A stretch of DNA of 64,000 nucleotides from Alphaproteobacteria bacterium (GCA_965204785.1 OZ242015.1:3490575-3554574); one strand, 5' to 3'; shown: positions 44,950 to 54,916, counted from the first letter of the stretch. Program-made: numbers and translations. Notes: a model not told the origin generated them from the letters alone.

Positions 44950-45108
44950 AACGCATGGCAGCGCATCCTTGCGCCATATCGGGGTCAGTCGGTGTTCAAG
45001 CCCATCTTCCCCTGGCTTCAGTCCCACCGGGCATCATGCAGACGCCAGTAGACCGCCGTTCCGACGAGTGGAGAGTTTTCCGGGATCACGTCGAAGGGCG
45101 TGTCGCCA

Positions 45109-47115
45109 TCAGTCGAAGGGCGTGTCGCCATCCTTATCCCGTGCGCCCGGATCGGCGCCGGCGTCGAGAAGCGCCTCGATGGCCTCTGCATGGCCATAAC
45201 GGGCCGCCCGGTGCAGCGGGGTCTCGCCATCCTTATCCCGTGCGTCCGGATCGGCGCCGGCGTCGAGAAGCGCCCCGATGGCCTCTGCATCGCCCGAACC
45301 GGCTGCATCGTGCAGCGGGGTCTCGCCAAAATAATCCCGTTCGCCCGGATCGGCGCCGGCGTCGAGAAGCGCCCCGATGGCCTCTGCATCGCCCAAACCG
45401 GCCGCCCGGTGCAGCGGGGTGATGTCATATTTACTCCGTGCGCCCGGATCGGCGCCGACGGCGAGAAGCGCCCCGATGGCCTCTACACAGCCCGAGCCGG
45501 CCGCAAAGTGCAGCGGGGTGCGGTCATCATGATCCCGTGCGCCCGGGTCGGCGCCGGCGTCGAGAAGCGCCCCGATGGCCTCTGCATGGCCATCACGGGC
45601 CGCCACGTGCAGCGGGGTTCCACCATTATTACCCCGTACGCCTAGATCGGCATTACTCCGTTCGCCCGGATCGGCGCCGGCGTCGAGAAGCGCCCCGATG
45701 GCCTCTGCATCGCCCTTACGGGCCGCCCAGTGCAGCGGGGTCTCGCCATCATCATCCCGTGCGTCCGGATCGGCGCCGGCGTCGAGAAGCGCCCCGATGG
45801 CCTCTGCATCGCCCGAACCGGCCGCCCGGTGCAGCGGGGTGGAGCCATAATTATTCCGTTCGCCCGGATCGGCGCCGGCGTCGAGAAGCGCCCCGATGGC
45901 CTCTGCATCGCCCTTACGGACCGCCCGGTGCAGCGGGGTGTTGCCACGAGTATCCCGTGCGCCCGGATCGGCGCCGGCGTCGAGAAGCGCCCCGATGGCC
46001 TCTGCATCGCCCGAACCGGCCGCAAAGTGCAGCGGGGTGTGGTCAAAATACCCAGTCCGTGCGTCCGGATCGGCGCCGGCGTCGAGAAGCGCCCCGATGG
46101 CCTCTGCATCGCCCGAACCGGCCGCAAAGTGCAGCGGGGTCTCGCTATCCCTATCCCGTGCGCCCGGATCGGCGCCGGCGTCGAGAAGCGCCCCGATGGC
46201 CTCTGCATCGCCCGAACCGGCCGCAAAGTGCAGCGGGGTGTCGCCAGCATCATCCCGTGCGCCCGGATCGGCGCCGGCGTCGAGAAGCGCCCCGATGGCC
46301 TCTGCATCGCCCGAACCGGCCGCAAAGTGCAGCGGGGTGTTGTCATTATGACCCCGTGCGTCCGGATCGGCGCCGGCGTCGAGAAGCGCCCCGATGGCCT
46401 CTGCATCGCCCGAACCGGCCGCAAAGTGCAGCGGGGTGTCGCCAGCATCATCCCGTGCGCCCGGATCGGCGCCGGCGTCGAGAAGCGCCTCGATGGCTTC
46501 TGCATCGCCCAAACCGGCCGCCCGGTGCAGCGGGTTGTGGTCATTATGACCCCCGGCGCCGGCGTCGAGAAGCGCCCCGATGGCCTCTGCATGGCCCTTA
46601 CGGACCGCCACGTGCAGCGGGGTGTCGCCATCATCATCCCGTGCGCCCGGGTCGGCGCCGGCGTCGAGAAGCGCCCCGATGGCCTCTGCATGGCCCTTCT
46701 CGGCCGCCCGGTGCAGCGGGGTGTCGCCATCATTATCCCGTGCGCCCGGGTCGGCGCCGGCGTCGAGAAGCGCCCCGATGGCCTCTGCATCGCCCGAACC
46801 GGCCGCCCAGTGCAGCGGGGTGTCGCCAAAAAACTCAGTCCGTGCGCCCGGATCGGCGCCGGCGTCGAGAAGCGCCCCGATGGCCTCTGCATCGCCCGAA
46901 CCGACCGCCCGGTGCAGCGGGGTCCAGCCATCAATATCCTGTGCGCCCGGGTCGGCGCCGGCGGCCAGGCATTCGCGCACCCGTTCGCCATCCGCTTTCT
47001 CGAAGAAAGCCTCAGTATTCCAGGCATCACATCCCGACGCGGCGCCGGCGGCCTGCCCAAGCGATGCGACGCCGACGATCACGGCCCACCTGACGGCCCA
47101 CCTGATCCATTGCAT
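45109..47115 (-). CDS. Ankyrin-repeat protein, putative secreted/lipoprotein, ~18 ANK repeats (copy 1)
   Basis: The signal peptide [29 protein letters not shown] is lipobox-like. Repeats of consensus [32 protein letters not shown] follow. The C-terminus is truncated at DGDTPFD* by a 22-bp tandem duplication at 45090-45133. The native frame would end at 45018. Confidence 0.8.
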   Translation of the reverse strand: MQWIRWAVRWAVIVGVASLGQAAGAASGCDAWNTEAFFEKADGERVRECLAAGADPGAQDIDGWTPLHRAVGSGDAEAIGALLDAGADPGARTEFFGDTPLHWAAGSGDAEAIGALLDAGADPGARDNDGDTPLHRAAEKGHAEAIGALLDAGADPGARDDDGDTPLHVAVRKGHAEAIGALLDAGAGGHNDHNPLHRAAGLGDAEAIEALLDAGADPGARDDAGDTPLHFAAGSGDAEAIGALLDAGADPDARGHNDNTPLHFAAGSGDAEAIGALLDAGADPGARDDAGDTPLHFAAGSGDAEAIGALLDAGADPGARDRDSETPLHFAAGSGDAEAIGALLDAGADPDARTGYFDHTPLHFAAGSGDAEAIGALLDAGADPGARDTRGNTPLHRAVRKGDAEAIGALLDAGADPGERNNYGSTPLHRAAGSGDAEAIGALLDAGADPDARDDDGETPLHWAARKGDAEAIGALLDAGADPGERSNADLGVRGNNGGTPLHVAARDGHAEAIGALLDAGADPGARDHDDRTPLHFAAGSGCVEAIGALLAVGADPGARSKYDITPLHRAAGLGDAEAIGALLDAGADPGERDYFGETPLHDAAGSGDAEAIGALLDAGADPDARDKDGETPLHRAARYGHAEAIEALLDAGADPGARDKDGDTPFD

Positions 47116-47495
47116 ATGCCATGCCTCCGCAGCTTTCCTTCACCCGTCCGCCACAGGGTGGCATGTCCCGGAAAACCTGGCAATGGCATACAGCGGGCAT
47201 CGAAAGCAGGTGCTGCCCCCGCTGCAAGGAGGCCGGGATCAAGGTGATCCACAAGTGCACATCCGTGCGTCACGCGCGCTGAAGGCGCAATCGATCGGCT
47301 GTGATGCGGTGTCCGCAGACGGCTTGAAGGCATGCTGTCGGGCTGACGATACCCGTCGCAACGTTCGGTGCCGGTGCGCTCGTGCCGGGAAGGCCATGGC
47401 CTGATCGAGGCAGGCCATGGCGAAACTTCCTTCCCGATCTTTACCTTGCGCCATATCGGGGTCAGTCGGTGTTCAAGCCCATCTTCTCCCTGGCT

Positions 47496-53141: not shown

Positions 53142-53651
53142 ATGTCATGCCTCCGCAGCTTTCCTTCACCCGTCCGCCACAGGGTGGCATGTCCCGGAAA
53201 ACCTGGCAATGGCATACAGCGGGCATCGAAAGCAGATGCTGACCCCGCTGAAGGAGGCCGGGATCATCCGCACCTGAATCCGGTCCGGGGCGTCCGTGAT
53301 GCAAGCCGCCTGCATGACCCCTGCAACGGCCCTCCCGGGTGCTCGATCCCCAGCCCGAATCGACCCCGAAATCAACAATGTGTTGAAATAATCGACATTG
53401 CCGTCACGCATCTTTCGCATCAATAACCCGCGCGTTTTTCGCGTGCCTCTAGTCAGGGGGCATCGAAAGCAGGTCCTGCCCCCGCTGAAAAGCGATACGG
53501 AAACCCTTCCGGCGGCGGATGTTCCCGCGGTCGTGCCGGAAAGGCCATGGCCTGATCGAGGCAGGCCATGGCGAAACTTCCTTCCCGATCTTTACCTTGC
53601 GCCATATCGGGGTCAGTCGGTGTTCAAGCCCATCTTCCCCTGGCTTCAGTT

Positions 53652-54410
53652 CTACCGGGCATCATGCAAACGCCGGTAGACCGCCGTTCCGACGAGTGGA
53701 GAGTTTGCCGGGATCACGTCGAAGGGCGTGTCGCCATCATTATCCCGTGCGCCCGGATCGGCGCCGCCGGCGAGAAGCGCCCCGATGGCCTCTGCATGGC
53801 CCCGACGGGCCGCCCAGTGCAGCGGGGTCTCGCCATCATCATCCCGTGCGCCCGGGTCGGCGCCGGCGTCGAGAAGCGCCCCGATGGCCTCTGCATCGCC
53901 CGAATAGGCCGCCTCGTGCAGCGGGGTCTCGCCAACATAATAATCCCGTGCGTCCGGATCGGCGCCGGCGGCGAGAAGCGCCCCGATGGCCTCTGCATGG
54001 CCCGAATAGGCCGCCCGGTGCAGCGGGGTCTCGCCAGCATCATCCCGTGCGTCCGGGTCGGCGCCGGCGTCGAGAAGCGCCCCGATGGCCTCTGCATGGC
54101 CAAGAAAGGCCGCCCAGTGCAGCGGGGTGTGGTCATTATGACCCCGTGCGCCGCCCGGATCGGCGCCGGCGTCGAGAAGCGCCCCGATGGCCTCTACATG
54201 GCCCCAACGGGCCGCATCGTGCAGCGGGGTCCAGCCATCATTATTCCGTGCGCCCGGATCGGCGCCGGCGGCCAGGCATTCGCGCACCAGTTCGCCATCC
54301 GCTTTCTCGAAGAAACCCCAAGTGTTCCAGGCATCACATCCCGACGCGGCGCCGGCGGCCTGCCCAAGCGATGCGACGCCGACAATCACGGCCCACCTGA
54401 TCCATTTCAT
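53652..54410 (-). CDS. Ankyrin-repeat protein, ~6 repeats (copy 6)
   Basis: [28 protein letters not shown]..., with an intact tail. Its upstream leader diverges from the shared leader after ~100 bp. Confidence 0.8.
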   Translation of the reverse strand: MKWIRWAVIVGVASLGQAAGAASGCDAWNTWGFFEKADGELVRECLAAGADPGARNNDGWTPLHDAARWGHVEAIGALLDAGADPGGARGHNDHTPLHWAAFLGHAEAIGALLDAGADPDARDDAGETPLHRAAYSGHAEAIGALLAAGADPDARDYYVGETPLHEAAYSGDAEAIGALLDAGADPGARDDDGETPLHWAARRGHAEAIGALLAGGADPGARDNDGDTPFDVIPANSPLVGTAVYRRLHDAR

Positions 54411-54916
54411 ATGTCATGCCTCCGCAGCTTTCCTTCATCCGTCTGCCGCAGGGTAGCATGTCCCGGATAACCTGGGAACAGCATATCAGGGGGCATCGGA
54501 AGCGTGAAACGATTTCGATAATGGAGGTTTGCATGGACGAAAACCGCTTCGTGATTTCCGACGGACTCCGGCAGAAGACTGCGCCGCTTCCGCCTGGCAA
54601 ACCGGCAGACCACAGGACGAAAAATGAAGATGGGCATGTGCAGCGCGCCCATCGTGCTGGCGTCGATCAGTCCTGTATGTTCGATGGCCGGGAGCACCGG
54701 CAGCGGCTGTGCGGTCGGGGCCCGCCCGCCCGGTTACAGGCGACGATGCAGCCGACGATGCAGCCGACCCGGCCCGCGGAGAGCCCGAACAGACGCACCG
54801 GAAAGACCGCAGGAACCGGGAACATGACCCCGCCCGGGGCACAGGCCGGCGTCGCCATCACGGGATCGGACGCCACGCGCCGCAGAGTGGGGAGGATATT
54901 TCCGAAAAGCCGGGGA

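What the first reader, a model, noticed from the sequence alone, without database searches (positions are those of the whole stretch)
44950..54540. Tandem array of six secreted ankyrin-repeat paralogs inserted between truA and dapE
Six same-strand genes encode proteins with a near-identical 27-aa signal peptide ending in a lipobox-like AASG|C. Each then has a conserved capping module, a variable number (4 to 18) of 33-aa ANK repeats of consensus [32 protein letters not shown], and a conserved 22-aa C-terminal tail ([23 protein letters not shown]). Each gene is preceded by an almost identical ~330-bp leader and followed by an identical 50-bp tail. The units are therefore duplicated at the DNA level and presumably homogenised by gene conversion. 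Eukaryote-like ANK proteins exported by bacteria are classically host-interaction effectors, and they are enriched in intracellular symbionts and sponge/protist-associated bacteria. An array of secreted ANK lipoproteins with variable repeat number looks like a recombination-driven, possibly population-variable, surface or secreted protein family. The array sits in a housekeeping neighbourhood and has the same GC content as its flanks.
Basis: partly seen in the sequence, partly recalled or inferred. Interest (0 to 1): 0.85.

Follow-up and report, generated by a model that had tools for sequence, protein, structure and literature searches.

The report
Six-gene array of exported ankyrin proteins
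An uncultured alphaproteobacterium carries, wedged between two housekeeping genes, six recently copied genes for exported ankyrin-repeat binding proteins whose scaffold is kept almost identical while the predicted binding-surface residues differ in nearly every repeat, an unusually clear example of a known kind of symbiont protein.

Summary
Six minus-strand genes fill the whole 9,967-bp gap between truA and dapE. In 63 of 80 related alphaproteobacterial loci these two genes are convergent neighbours (median gap 604 bp), and none has an ankyrin gene there.

Each protein has a signal peptide, an N-cap, 4-18 ankyrin repeats and a C-cap, like a designed ankyrin protein (DARPin). Two genes lose the C-cap through the same 22-nt tandem duplication. 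One gene is a fusion carrying a second N-cap.

The junction modules (C-cap, spacer, signal peptide, N-cap) are up to 100% identical over 611 nt. Inside the 33-codon repeats, 70% of all nucleotide differences fall in 8 codons, mostly the positions randomised in DARPin libraries. Framework synonymous diversity is only 0.046.

The "lipobox" cysteine is one of a cysteine pair found in all 56 homologous N-cap modules, and none of the 41 checked sits in a strict lipobox. A soluble, disulfide-stapled exported protein is therefore more likely than a lipoprotein.

The conserved "leader" carries a relic of a nitronate monooxygenase gene.

Best reading: exported host- or partner-binding ankyrin proteins that evolve by concerted evolution plus diversifying selection. 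Function is inferred, not shown.

The parts
53652..54410 (-). g6: intact ankyrin gene, 252 aa. 24-aa signal peptide, N-cap (Cys25/Cys45), 5 repeats, C-cap ending ...YRRLHDAR.
   Evidence: ORF. Pfam Ank_2 2.4e-59. AF2 pLDDT 88.8 with a cap helix at each end. Best PDB fold match is DARPin 6moj_A, TM 0.78/0.88.
52110..53141 (-). g5: chimeric gene, 343 aa. Signal peptide, N-cap and one truncated repeat are fused in frame to a second N-cap (about 52797-52892), followed by 6 repeats and a C-cap. It is the remnant of a seventh unit.
   Evidence: Translation. Junction sequence ...DALDDPG|CDAWNTEAFF. Seven N-cap copies in repeat families D4-D6.
50948..51727 (-). g4: intact gene, 259 aa, 5 repeats. The C-cap ends ...[11 protein letters not shown] because of a 19-nt tandem duplication.
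49950..50555 (-). g3: 201 aa, 4 repeats, stops at ...DGDTPFD*. An intact C-cap lies out of frame at 49856-49949.
   Evidence: The out-of-frame C-cap belongs to a 611-nt tract identical to the g4 C-cap and spacer.
49931..49974 (-). 22-nt tandem duplication (TGATGGCGACACGCCCTTCGAC x2) in g3. It creates a TGA stop.
47496..49463 (-). g2: intact gene, 655 aa, 17 repeats, C-cap ...[10 protein letters not shown].
   Evidence: (Ank_2 1.2e-172).
45109..47115 (-). g1: 668 aa, 18 repeats, stops at ...DGDTPFD*. The C-cap lies out of frame at 45018-45108.
45090..45133 (-). The same 22-nt tandem duplication in g1. The first base of copy 1 is G instead of T.
49464..49855 (-). Standard spacer: the 3' tail of the upstream gene, a hairpin, the monooxygenase relic, a Shine-Dalgarno GGAGG and the ATG. 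Copies lie at 47116-47495, 49464-49855, 50556-50947 and 51728-52109.
   Evidence: 98-100% identical.
53142..53651 (-). Variant spacer before g5. Only about 125 nt at each end is shared. A 260-nt stretch (53267-53526) is unique.
54411..54503 (-). Conserved 93 nt next to the ATG of g6 (88% identical to the other spacers, includes the GGAGG). 54504-54916, up to the dapE stop, is unique.
44950..45017 (-). First 68 nt of the spacer sequence after the g1 C-cap. It abuts the truA stop codon.
49739..49767 (-). Hairpin: perfect 11-bp palindrome GCCATGGCCTG-N7-CAGGCCATGGC, extended to 18 bp, -29 to -32 kcal/mol, no U tract. It lies in the spacer downstream of g2-g6. Copies at 47393-47421, 49739-49767, 50831-50859, 52003-52031 and 53544-53572.
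49574..49681 (+). Relic of a PA1024-like nitronate monooxygenase gene (residues 114-150) on the opposite strand inside the spacer. Copies at 49574-49681, 50666-50773, 51838-51945 and 47226-47335 (frameshifted).
   Evidence: phmmer against PDB 2gjl/6e2a, E 8.7e-10. Pfam NMO is the only family hit, E 0.009. tblastn copies.
44209..44949 (+). truA, the left flank, convergent with the array.
   Evidence: ORF. 80% identical to truA of OY282363.1.
54917..56068 (-). dapE, the right flank, on the same strand and upstream of the array. dapD follows.
   Evidence: ORF. Homologues lie next to truA in 63 of 80 loci.

Best explanation
This is a lineage-specific, recently amplified tandem array of paralogous genes for Sec-exported ankyrin-repeat binding proteins. 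Six genes are present, plus the remnant of a seventh.

Each gene has its own ribosome-binding site and signal peptide. The mature protein is a capped ankyrin solenoid. It has an N-cap carrying two invariant cysteines (probably a disulfide that forms only outside the cytoplasm), 4-18 near-consensus 33-residue repeats, and a C-cap.

The family is common in metagenomes and includes sponge-associated MAGs from several phyla.

The array evolves by concerted evolution. Unequal crossing-over and gene conversion keep the junction modules and the repeat framework almost identical, even at synonymous sites, and they change repeat number. Diversifying selection keeps eight codons per repeat different. 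These codons lie in the beta-turn and at the start of helix 1, the ligand-binding groove.

The result is a set of binders with 55 different repeat surfaces. Their most likely targets are eukaryotic-host or other extracellular proteins, as with the secreted ankyrin proteins of sponge symbionts and their phages that reduce phagocytosis.

Shown here: ankyrin identity, architecture, insertion, DNA homogenisation, and localised hypervariability.
Inferred: export, the disulfide, selection as the cause of the variability, and host targets.
For: - Ankyrin identity and capped fold: Pfam, PDB sequence matches, an AF2 model with pLDDT 88.8, and a best fold match to a DARPin over 227 columns.
- Insertion: the gap is 9,967 bp against a median of 604 bp in 63 of 80 relatives, and none of those has an ankyrin gene.
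- Homogenisation: a 611-nt exact tract spans C-cap, spacer, signal peptide and N-cap between neighbouring genes whose repeat regions differ (4, 5 and 17 repeats). Spacers are 98-100% identical.
- Localised variation across 44 aligned units: the 8 hypervariable codons have pN 0.466, while framework codons have pS 0.046 and pN 0.061.
- 70.4% of all nucleotide differences fall in 24% of the bases. None of 20,000 column shuffles reaches this share.
- 55 of 56 units have a distinct 9-residue signature. For 37 of 56 units the nearest neighbour lies in another gene.
- Export: the N-terminus has a charged n-region (Arg5 and Arg9 in g1-g4; Lys2 and Arg5 in g5-g6), a hydrophobic core and an Ala/Gly-rich c-region. 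It is disordered in the AF2 model.
- Cysteine pair: present in 56 of 56 homologous modules. Five of the six mature proteins have an even number of cysteines.
- Family context: 41 of the top 120 homologues share the N-cap. Named hits include sponge-type MAGs. Small clusters of paralogs with shared signal peptides occur elsewhere.
- Literature: ankyrin proteins are enriched in sponge MAGs, and sponge-symbiont repeat proteins expressed in E. coli let it evade phagocytosis (PMC8163846). The ankyrin protein ANKp of sponge-associated phages ('Ankyphages') reduces phagocytosis, and two of the Ankyphage ankyrin proteins carry a signal peptide (bioRxiv 10.1101/608950).
Against: - No signal-peptide predictor was available.
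- No model coordinates were available to check the Cys-Cys distance.
- There are no expression or population data.
- The source organism and its habitat are unknown. The window's proteins are not in the protein collection. The nearest truA is only 80% identical.
- Two of the six genes lack an in-frame C-cap and one is a fusion, so part of the array may be decaying.
- No secretion system beyond Sec and YidC lies in the 64 kb, so delivery beyond the periplasm is unexplained.
- The pN/pS contrast is computed on sites chosen for their variability, in sequences that recombine. It is therefore not a formal test of selection.
Confidence: 0.6

Rival explanations
1. The proteins are lipoproteins: signal peptidase II cleaves at AASG|C, Cys+1 is acylated, and the ankyrin solenoids are tethered to a membrane or the cell surface.
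For: A-S-G-C fits a relaxed lipobox pattern and sits at the end of a signal-peptide-like segment in all six proteins. Some homologues are evidently lipoproteins, through a separate lipobox further upstream: P0005 LAASGC, P0007 LVLGC, P0049 VGSAC.
Against: - Position -3 is Ala, not Leu, Val or Ile.
- The same cysteine is invariant in 56 of 56 N-cap modules. This includes modules that sit well inside a protein or several residues after an AxA cleavage site.
- None of 41 modules is preceded by a strict lipobox.
- The closest homologue, P0018, has a nearly identical signal peptide but reads ...AEPG|C.
- A lipidated Cys29 could not pair with the equally invariant Cys49.
Confidence: 0.25
2. The array is a bank of periplasmic immunity (or anti-phage) proteins. 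Each paralog would neutralise a different incoming toxin or effector of competing bacteria, as in orphan immunity-gene arrays.
For: The features fit an arms race: tandem paralogs, export signals and hypervariable binding surfaces. PADLOC models with ankyrin domains (PDC-M72A, 'Ankyrin', MzaA) match the proteins.
Against: The PADLOC and NCBIfam MzaA hits cover only the ankyrin repeats and fall far below the family cut-offs. The 64 kb holds no toxin, T6SS, CDI or defence partner gene. Homologues sit singly among housekeeping genes.
Confidence: 0.08
3. The array is evolutionary debris or an assembly artefact. In this reading it is a selfishly amplified, decaying repeat region, or a mis-assembled one, and its products have no function.
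For: Two genes are truncated by a frameshifting duplication. One gene is a fusion. The spacers carry a pseudogene relic. Codon usage is atypical. Exact repeats of 325-611 nt could not be resolved by short reads.
Against: - Reading frames of 655 and 668 codons stay open through 1.7 kb of repeats.
- The framework is under strong constraint (pN 0.061), while variation is confined to the binding-surface codons.
- The ribosome-binding site, the start codon and the signal peptide are conserved in all six genes.
- Units are diverged enough to be placed by long reads: mean identity is 81% and exact repeats within a gene are at most 128 nt.
Confidence: 0.07

Closest known systems
Secreted ankyrin-repeat 'eukaryote-like' proteins of sponge symbionts and Ankyphage ANKp (Nguyen et al. 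2014, as cited in PMC8163846; bioRxiv 10.1101/608950)
   Same: Bacterial ankyrin-only proteins with an N-terminal signal peptide and no transmembrane segment. The homologues here come from metagenomes, and some are named sponge-type MAGs. The presumed role is binding host proteins.
   Different: The window's origin is unknown and no function was tested. The present case is a six-gene tandem array with homogenised junctions and hypervariable repeat surfaces. The viral contigs searched held only generic ankyrin genes without this N-cap.
Designed ankyrin repeat proteins (DARPins; PMC8683736)
   Same: The architecture is N-cap, n near-consensus 33-residue repeats, C-cap. The best structural match has TM 0.78/0.88 and 42% identity. 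Counted from the beta-turn Asp, the variable positions are 1, 2, 3, 5, 10, 13, 14 and 16. They include five of the six DARPin library positions (2, 3, 5, 13, 14, 33; the DARPin list is from my own knowledge of Binz et al. 2003).
   Different: These proteins are natural, exported and have their own cap sequences (CxxWNTxxFF...CL and TPFD...YWRLHDAR). Position 33 is fixed (Arg), while positions 10 and 16 vary.
Highly internally conserved ANK/TPR/WD repeats of fungal NLR-like proteins (PMC4986451)
   Same: The evolutionary regime is the same. Repeats are nearly identical, repeat number varies, repeats are exchanged within and between paralogs, and diversifying positions lie on the concave binding face.
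   Different: There is no NOD/NACHT domain. The proteins are bacterial and exported, not cytoplasmic receptors. Allelic polymorphism could not be examined.
Ankyrin effectors of intracellular bacteria (Legionella Dot/Icm AnkX/AnkH etc.; Wolbachia ANK families)
   Same: They are ankyrin-repeat paralog families in host-associated bacteria. In Wolbachia, repeat number is variable.
   Different: All NCBIfam Dot/Icm Ank models score far below their cut-offs (for example 273 against 600 bits). No T4SS lies in the window. A Sec signal peptide points to a different export route.
Multi-cassette proteins of the same N-cap family in metagenomes (for example P0143, P0142, P0130)
   Same: The same Cys-pair N-cap and the same YWRL-type C-cap. 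Cassettes are multiplied 3-6 times. Small gene clusters occur in L084 and L085.
   Different: There the cassettes are fused in one polypeptide, or form 2-3 diverged genes. Here there are six separate genes, each with its own signal peptide, and the spacers are near-identical.

Membership tests
Ankyrin repeat superfamily (Pfam Ank, Ank_2) | 33-residue repeats that match the profiles above the gathering score | tested here: met
   Ank_2 scores 121-561 bits against a cut-off of 27.3 in all six proteins.
Ankyrin repeat superfamily (Pfam Ank, Ank_2) | Stacked helix-turn-helix solenoid with terminal caps | tested here: met
   AF2 model of g6: pLDDT 88.8, paired helices every 33 residues, and cap helices at 33-47 and 229-251. 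Foldseek top hit is a DARPin at 2.3 A rmsd.
Sec (SPase I) secretory proteins | Positively charged n-region, hydrophobic h-region of 10-15 residues, small residues at -3/-1 | tested here: met
   By inspection and hydropathy only. g1-g4 have R5 and R9 (g5-g6 have K2 and R5), followed by the core [10 protein letters not shown] and then QAAGAASG with several AxA-type sites. No predictor was available.
Bacterial lipoproteins (SPase II substrates) | Lipobox [LVI][ASTVI][GAS]C at the end of the signal peptide | tested here: not met
   The sequence is A-S-G-C, so position -3 is Ala. It fits only a relaxed pattern.
Bacterial lipoproteins (SPase II substrates) | The cysteine is conserved because it is the acylation site | tested here: not met
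   The cysteine is invariant in 56 of 56 modules, including internal ones and ones without a lipobox. None of 41 has a strict lipobox.
Sponge-symbiont secreted ankyrin proteins (ARPs / ANKp) | Ankyrin-only protein with a signal peptide, encoded by a sponge-associated microbe or phage | tested here: inconclusive
   The architecture criterion is met. The origin of the window is unknown. Homologues come from unnamed ENA metagenome assemblies and a few named MAGs (IRC3_bin_20, Truepera, Albidovulum).
Sponge-symbiont secreted ankyrin proteins (ARPs / ANKp) | Reduces phagocytosis or the immune response of eukaryotic cells | not testable with these tools
   This needs an experiment.
Dot/Icm T4SS ankyrin effectors | Match to an equivalog model above its cut-off, with a T4SS present | tested here: not met
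   The best hit, AnkY, scores 272.8 bits against a cut-off of 600. The matches are to repeats only. No T4SS genes were found among the genes annotated in the 64 kb.
Diversity-generating retroelements | Reverse transcriptase, a template/variable repeat pair, and adenine-specific changes | tested here: not met
   None of the 30 window ORFs scanned against Pfam is a reverse transcriptase. Codon pairs at the variable positions differ at 1, 2 or 3 bases, so the third base varies too.
Concerted-evolution / diversifying-selection repeat arrays (fungal NLR type) | Highly similar repeats with hypervariable positions on the binding face | tested here: met
   Framework nucleotide diversity is 0.056 against 0.418 at 8 codons. 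Mean repeat identity is 0.66-0.84, against a median of 0.37 in homologues.
Concerted-evolution / diversifying-selection repeat arrays (fungal NLR type) | Repeat-number polymorphism between alleles; a NOD domain | tested here: not met
   No NOD domain is present. Allelic variation is not testable here. Only paralog variation (4-18 repeats) was seen.
Cassette-based antigenic or phase variation (pilE/pilS, vlsE type) | One expression site plus promoterless, start-less silent cassettes | tested here: not met
   All six copies keep the GGAGG, the ATG and the signal peptide. The shared 22-nt duplication could be reversible, but that is untested.
Toxin-immunity / defence gene arrays | A neighbouring toxin, secretion-system or defence partner gene | tested here: not met
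   Every window ORF with a Pfam match is a housekeeping-type gene: bolA, aroB, xerD, accA, secA, argJ, dnaX, recR and yidC by Pfam, with rmuC, def, fmt, truA, dapE and dapD assigned from their translations or homologues.

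The most novel reading that the evidence does not exclude
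The array is a natural combinatorial binder library with a built-in switching mechanism. In this reading the near-identical junction modules act as recombination handles. They let repeat cassettes be swapped between six expression-competent genes. Short reversible tandem duplications (22 nt, removing the C-cap; also 19 nt and 12 nt) turn individual copies on, off or into altered forms. A clonal population would then present a changing repertoire of exported DARPin-like binders to its host, as a bacterial analogue of variable lymphocyte receptor or antigenic-variation systems built on ankyrin repeats.
Probability: 0.12. Interest if true: 0.8.

Novelty: new variant of a known kind. Interest (0 to 1): 0.5.

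Why it matters
Exported ankyrin proteins are the textbook "eukaryote-like" signature of sponge and protist symbionts, yet how their specificities arise is poorly understood.

This locus shows the process caught in the act. A conserved truA|dapE junction has been invaded by one cassette type, which was amplified to six or seven copies. The scaffold is held constant to the nucleotide, while the predicted paratope differs in 55 of 56 repeats. That is the same design logic as synthetic DARPin libraries and fungal NLR repeats.

The locus also yields a simple, testable family signature: a Cys-pair N-cap (CxxWN[TS]xxFF...CL) and a TPxD...YWRL C-cap. No Pfam model matched either cap module in these proteins. 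The signature corrects the easy mis-call of these proteins as lipoproteins.

If the variable repeats bind host proteins, the six paralogs are a ready-made panel for finding the host targets of symbiont ankyrin proteins.

Tried and rejected
- Exact look-ups of g2 and dapE in the assembly collection found nothing on record, so the source genome could not be identified.
- A DNA pattern from the signal-peptide region gave 0 hits in the JGI metagenomes.
- A homologue search with the signal peptide plus N-cap alone found no candidates sharing enough words.
- The profile search of 1.84 billion representatives with the N-cap plus half a repeat was swamped by generic ankyrin proteins (338,493 hits). 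It gives no family size. It was useful only for finding the multi-cassette proteins.
- Cluster look-ups returned no names.
- Rfam gave only sub-threshold SNORA64 matches inside the repeats, which are chance.
- The sigma-70 promoter scan found 0 sites, and the terminator-like hits lie inside coding repeats.
- The whole spacer does not fold better than shuffled sequence (z -1.25). Only the local hairpin stands out.
- The unique stretches before g5 and g6 have no homologues in the fetched loci.
- tblastn against plasmids found no match, and against phages only a 38%-identical Wolbachia WO ankyrin gene.
- DGR-type mutagenesis, a Dot/Icm effector and a defence-system component were each considered and rejected (see the membership tests).
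- +1 ribosomal frameshifting at GAC-TGA to rescue g1 and g3 was considered and judged unlikely, because the P-site tRNA cannot re-pair. This is my own reasoning.
- The long antisense ORFs through the repeats are by-products of the repeat sequence.

Full report
**1. Observation**

The region 44950-54916 holds six ORFs, all on the minus strand:
- g1, 45109-47115, 668 aa
- g2, 47496-49463, 655 aa
- g3, 49950-50555, 201 aa
- g4, 50948-51727, 259 aa
- g5, 52110-53141, 343 aa
- g6, 53652-54410, 252 aa

All six match the Pfam ankyrin families far above the gathering scores (Ank_2 E 2.6e-35 to 1.2e-172). Tandem Repeats Finder reports 99-nt arrays with 82-87% matches inside every gene. Anchoring on TPLH gives 18, 17, 4, 5, 7 (one truncated) and 5 internal repeats, 56 in all. 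No ankyrin sequence occurs elsewhere in the 64 kb.

The left flank is rmuC-def-fmt-truA, with truA ending at 44949 on the plus strand. The right flank is dapE (54917-56068) followed by dapD, both on the minus strand. The array therefore fills the whole 9,967-bp gap and is transcribed in the direction of dapD-dapE, in the order g6 to g1.

**2. Anatomy of one unit**

Each gene starts 8 nt after a GGAGG. The N-terminus reads [28 protein letters not shown] (28 aa) in g1-g4. In g5-g6 it reads [24 protein letters not shown] (24 aa). The difference is a 12-nt in-frame tandem duplication (RWAV twice).

The order of elements that follows is:
- [32 protein letters not shown], the N-cap
- the 33-residue repeats
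- [30 protein letters not shown], the C-cap

An AlphaFold model of g6 has mean pLDDT 88.8. Residues 1-22 are disordered. The N-cap forms helices at 33-36 and 39-47, regular helix pairs follow, and the C-cap forms helices at 229-232 and 243-251. Its best match among solved structures is a DARPin (6moj_A; TM 0.78/0.88, rmsd 2.3 A over 227 columns, 42% identity). [quoted passage not shown] Such caps seal the hydrophobic core and matter for stability (PMC8683736).

**3. Defects**

In g1 and g3 a 22-nt tandem duplication (TGATGGCGACACGCCCTTCGAC twice; 45090-45133 and 49931-49974) places a TGA directly after ...TPFD. The rest of the C-cap is left intact but out of frame. The out-of-frame C-cap of g3 lies inside a 611-nt tract that is identical to the in-frame C-cap and spacer of g4. 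The lesion is therefore either very recent, or spread and maintained by gene conversion, or reversible.

A 19-nt tandem duplication changes the C-terminus of g3 and g4 to ...AWSPV.

g5 is a fusion. A signal peptide, an N-cap and one truncated repeat run in frame into a second N-cap (...DALDDPG|CDAWNTEAFF...). This is the remnant of a seventh unit.

**4. Spacers**

The spacers before g1-g4 are 380-392 nt long and 98-100% identical. Those before g2 and g3 are identical over all 392 nt. The spacer before g5 is 510 nt and shares only about 125 nt at each end. The region before g6 shares only the 93 nt next to the ATG, at 88% identity. After the g1 C-cap only the first 68 nt of spacer remain before truA.

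Each full spacer contains a strong hairpin (an 11-bp perfect palindrome extended to 18 bp, -29 to -32 kcal/mol, no U tract) in the spacer downstream of g2-g6.

On the opposite strand each full spacer carries a fragment of a nitronate monooxygenase gene. [36 protein letters not shown] aligns with residues 114-150 of P. aeruginosa PA1024 (PDB 2gjl, E 8.7e-10). Pfam NMO is the only family it matches. Four copies exist, one of them frameshifted, and there is no intact gene in the window or in the fetched loci.

The "leader" is therefore at least partly a pseudogene relic that was amplified together with the ankyrin gene. Its near-identity reflects recent duplication or conversion, not necessarily function. 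No sigma-70-like promoter was found, and no Rfam family reached its threshold.

**5. Evolutionary pattern**

The longest exact repeats are junction modules consisting of C-cap, spacer, signal peptide and N-cap. They measure 611, 325, 221 and 200 nt. They end where the first variable loop begins, yet the repeat regions between them differ in number (4, 5 and 17 repeats) and in sequence.

Results for the 44 units of exactly 33 codons, counting TPLH as positions 1-4:
- Amino-acid entropy is high only at positions 5, 8, 9, 11, 29, 30, 31 and 33.
- At these eight codons pN is 0.466 and pS is 0.177. At the other 25 codons pS is 0.046 and pN is 0.061.
- 45 of the 99 nucleotide columns are invariant.
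- 70.4% of all pairwise differences fall in the 24 bases of the eight codons. Diversity there is 0.418, against 0.056 elsewhere and 0.041 at framework third positions.
- In 20,000 shuffles of the columns, the best eight codons never captured as much (maximum 0.672).

Counted from the beta-turn Asp, the variable positions are 1, 2, 3, 5, 10, 13, 14 and 16. These lie at the beta-turn tip and the start of helix 1. Five of them are positions randomised in DARPin libraries (2, 3, 5, 13, 14, 33; this list is from my own knowledge of Binz et al. 2003). They also correspond to the positively selected positions reported for the ankyrin repeats of fungal NLR-like proteins (PMC4986451).

Of the 56 units, 55 have a distinct 9-residue signature. 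For 37 of 56 units the closest unit lies in another gene, so units have been exchanged between genes. Repeat identity within these proteins (0.66-0.84) lies at the top of the range for their homologues (median 0.37, maximum 0.77).

I read this as concerted evolution of the scaffold and junctions combined with diversifying selection on the binding surface. Two caveats apply: the sites were chosen by their variability, and recombination violates the assumptions of simple pN/pS.

A DGR-type mechanism is excluded. None of the 30 window ORFs scanned against Pfam is a reverse transcriptase, and codon pairs at the variable positions differ at one, two or all three bases.

**6. Context**

Searching one genome per species for relatives of truA returned 80 loci. 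In 63 of them dapE lies convergently next to truA, with a median gap of 604 bp (range -3 to 4,467 bp). dapD follows in 58 loci, and none contains an ankyrin gene.

The closest relative is OY282363.1, an uncultured alphaproteobacterial MAG chromosome whose truA is 80% identical. There a restriction-modification system follows truA instead. The junction is thus a recurrent insertion point, and the array is lineage-specific.

Among the 30 other window ORFs scanned against Pfam, every match is to a housekeeping-type family. They include bolA, aroB, xerD, accA, secA, argJ, folD, pheA, dnaX, recR and yidC, and an SRP RNA is also present. There is no transposase, reverse transcriptase or dedicated secretion system.

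Overall GC equals that of the flanks. GC3 of the ankyrin genes is 0.71-0.73, against 0.79-0.90 in housekeeping genes, and codon preferences differ. This is weak evidence for foreign origin, because one 33-codon unit dominates the sample.

**7. The family, and the lipobox question**

No close homologue exists among 5.8 billion protein clusters. The best hits are at most 64% identical over part of the query.

However, 41 of the top 120 hits share the N-cap signature C-x2-W-N-[TS]-x2-[FY]-F-x9-10-C-L-x2-G-A. Many also share the C-cap signature TP[WF]D...G[TS]xxYWRLN[ED]ARF. The named hits are MAGs of several phyla: 'Cyanobacteria bacterium MAG IRC3_bin_20', Truepera and Albidovulum. The first name looks like those of coral-reef sponge MAG studies (PMC8163846), but I did not confirm that link.

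The nearest relative, P0018, has an almost identical signal peptide and about 78% DNA identity, including the ribosome-binding site. It lies in an IS-rich part of a 1.84-Mb contig. Other relatives sit singly among housekeeping genes or in clusters of 2-4 modules. Some database proteins string 3-6 N-cap...C-cap cassettes together in one chain.

When modules were selected only by WN[TSA]xx[FY][FL], all 56 had the first cysteine. I read all 56 as having the second cysteine too: the pattern matched 52, and the sequences of the other four show it by eye. None of the 41 modules checked has a strict lipobox before the first cysteine. Typical contexts are VHA|QVDC, ALA|ADC and AEPG-C. Some proteins have a separate genuine lipobox further upstream.

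The cysteine after AASG is therefore a structural residue of the cap, most probably disulfide-bonded to the second cysteine. That in turn argues for an extracytoplasmic location. I rate SPase I processing to a soluble exported protein as about three times more likely than lipidation. Neither could be tested directly.

**8. Mechanism and rivals**

Most likely (confidence 0.6): each gene yields a Sec-exported, capped ankyrin solenoid whose groove, lined by the variable residues, binds a protein ligand. The paralogs differ in length and surface and so offer different specificities.

By analogy with sponge-symbiont ankyrin proteins, and with the secreted phage protein ANKp that lowers phagocytosis and inflammatory responses (PMC8163846; bioRxiv 10.1101/608950), the targets would be host proteins. 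How the proteins would leave the periplasm is unknown. The same gap is noted for sponge MAGs in general (PMC8163846).

Rivals:
- A lipid-anchored version (0.25).
- A bank of periplasmic immunity or defence proteins (0.08). The only support is ankyrin cross-hits in PADLOC, and there are no partner genes.
- Non-functional debris or an assembly artefact (0.07). This is countered by the long open frames, the constrained framework and the conserved start signals.

Dot/Icm-type effectors are excluded by the NCBIfam scores.

**9. Novelty and score**

The kind is known: exported ankyrin "eukaryote-like" proteins of host-associated bacteria. The evolutionary regime is also known, from fungal NLR repeats.

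What is unusual here:
- a six-gene (formerly seven) tandem array with junctions identical to the nucleotide
- the DARPin-library-like separation of an invariant scaffold from a hypervariable surface
- the shared frameshifting duplication
- a family-wide Cys-pair cap, whose modules no Pfam model matched in these proteins

I rate this a new variant of a known kind, with interest 0.5. The most novel reading still open is that the array is a recombinational or phase-variable binder repertoire (probability about 0.12).

Noticed in passing
window 49574-49681, 50666-50773, 51838-51945, 47226-47335 (+): Each full spacer carries, on the strand opposite the ankyrin genes, a fragment of a PA1024-like nitronate monooxygenase gene covering residues 114-150 (E 8.7e-10 against PDB 2gjl). 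No intact copy exists in the window or in the 80 related loci.
   Followed up: yes
window 45090-45133 and 49931-49974; tails of g3/g4 (about 49848-49885 and 50940-50977); codons 5-12 of g1-g4: Short tandem duplications of 22, 19 and 12 nt recur in the junction modules. The 22-nt one truncates g1 and g3, the 19-nt one changes the C-terminus, and the 12-nt one lengthens the signal peptide.
   Followed up: partly
window 47393-47421, 49739-49767, 50831-50859, 52003-52031, 53544-53572 (-): The same strong hairpin (18 bp, about -32 kcal/mol, no U tract) lies in the spacer downstream of g2-g6. It may be a terminator-like or RNA-stabilising element, or a protein-binding palindrome.
   Followed up: partly
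L002 10736-13300 (OY282363.1) and 63 other truA loci: The convergent truA|dapE junction varies among alphaproteobacteria, with gaps from -3 to 4,467 bp. In the closest relative a DNA methylase and a restriction-enzyme-like gene follow truA, and dapE is not within 10 kb.
   Followed up: partly
window 45730-47247 (+), 47382-49523 (+) and others: Long stop-free antisense ORFs (up to 713 aa) run through the repeats. Their GC3 is higher than in the true ankyrin frames, so a GC3-based gene caller picks the wrong strand.
   Followed up: partly
window 35414-35504 (+): A bacterial small SRP RNA (RF00169, 57.5 bits) lies inside the 5' part of the mechanical dnaX ORF 35029-37320. The true dnaX start must be downstream.
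   Followed up: no
window 7495-9357 (+): A 620-aa ORF between aroB and xerD has typical coding GC3 but no Pfam match at 1e-5.
   Followed up: no
window 17519-18091 (+): A 190-aa ORF matches only the C-terminal half of the CN_hydrolase profile (positions 140-256 of 256). It may be a truncated gene. A full-length paralog lies at 21588-22436.
   Followed up: no
proteins P0143, P0142, P0130, P0157; L084 2008-4189: Metagenome proteins contain 3-6 complete 'Cys-pair N-cap ... YWRL C-cap' ankyrin cassettes in one polypeptide. Cassette multiplication is thus a family habit, realised here as separate genes.
   Followed up: partly
L001 2700-14700: The nearest homologue (P0018) lies in a stretch dense with transposase fragments (DDE_Tnp_1, DDE_3, rve, IS66) on a 1.84-Mb contig. 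That setting is unlike the clean housekeeping setting of the window's array.
   Followed up: no
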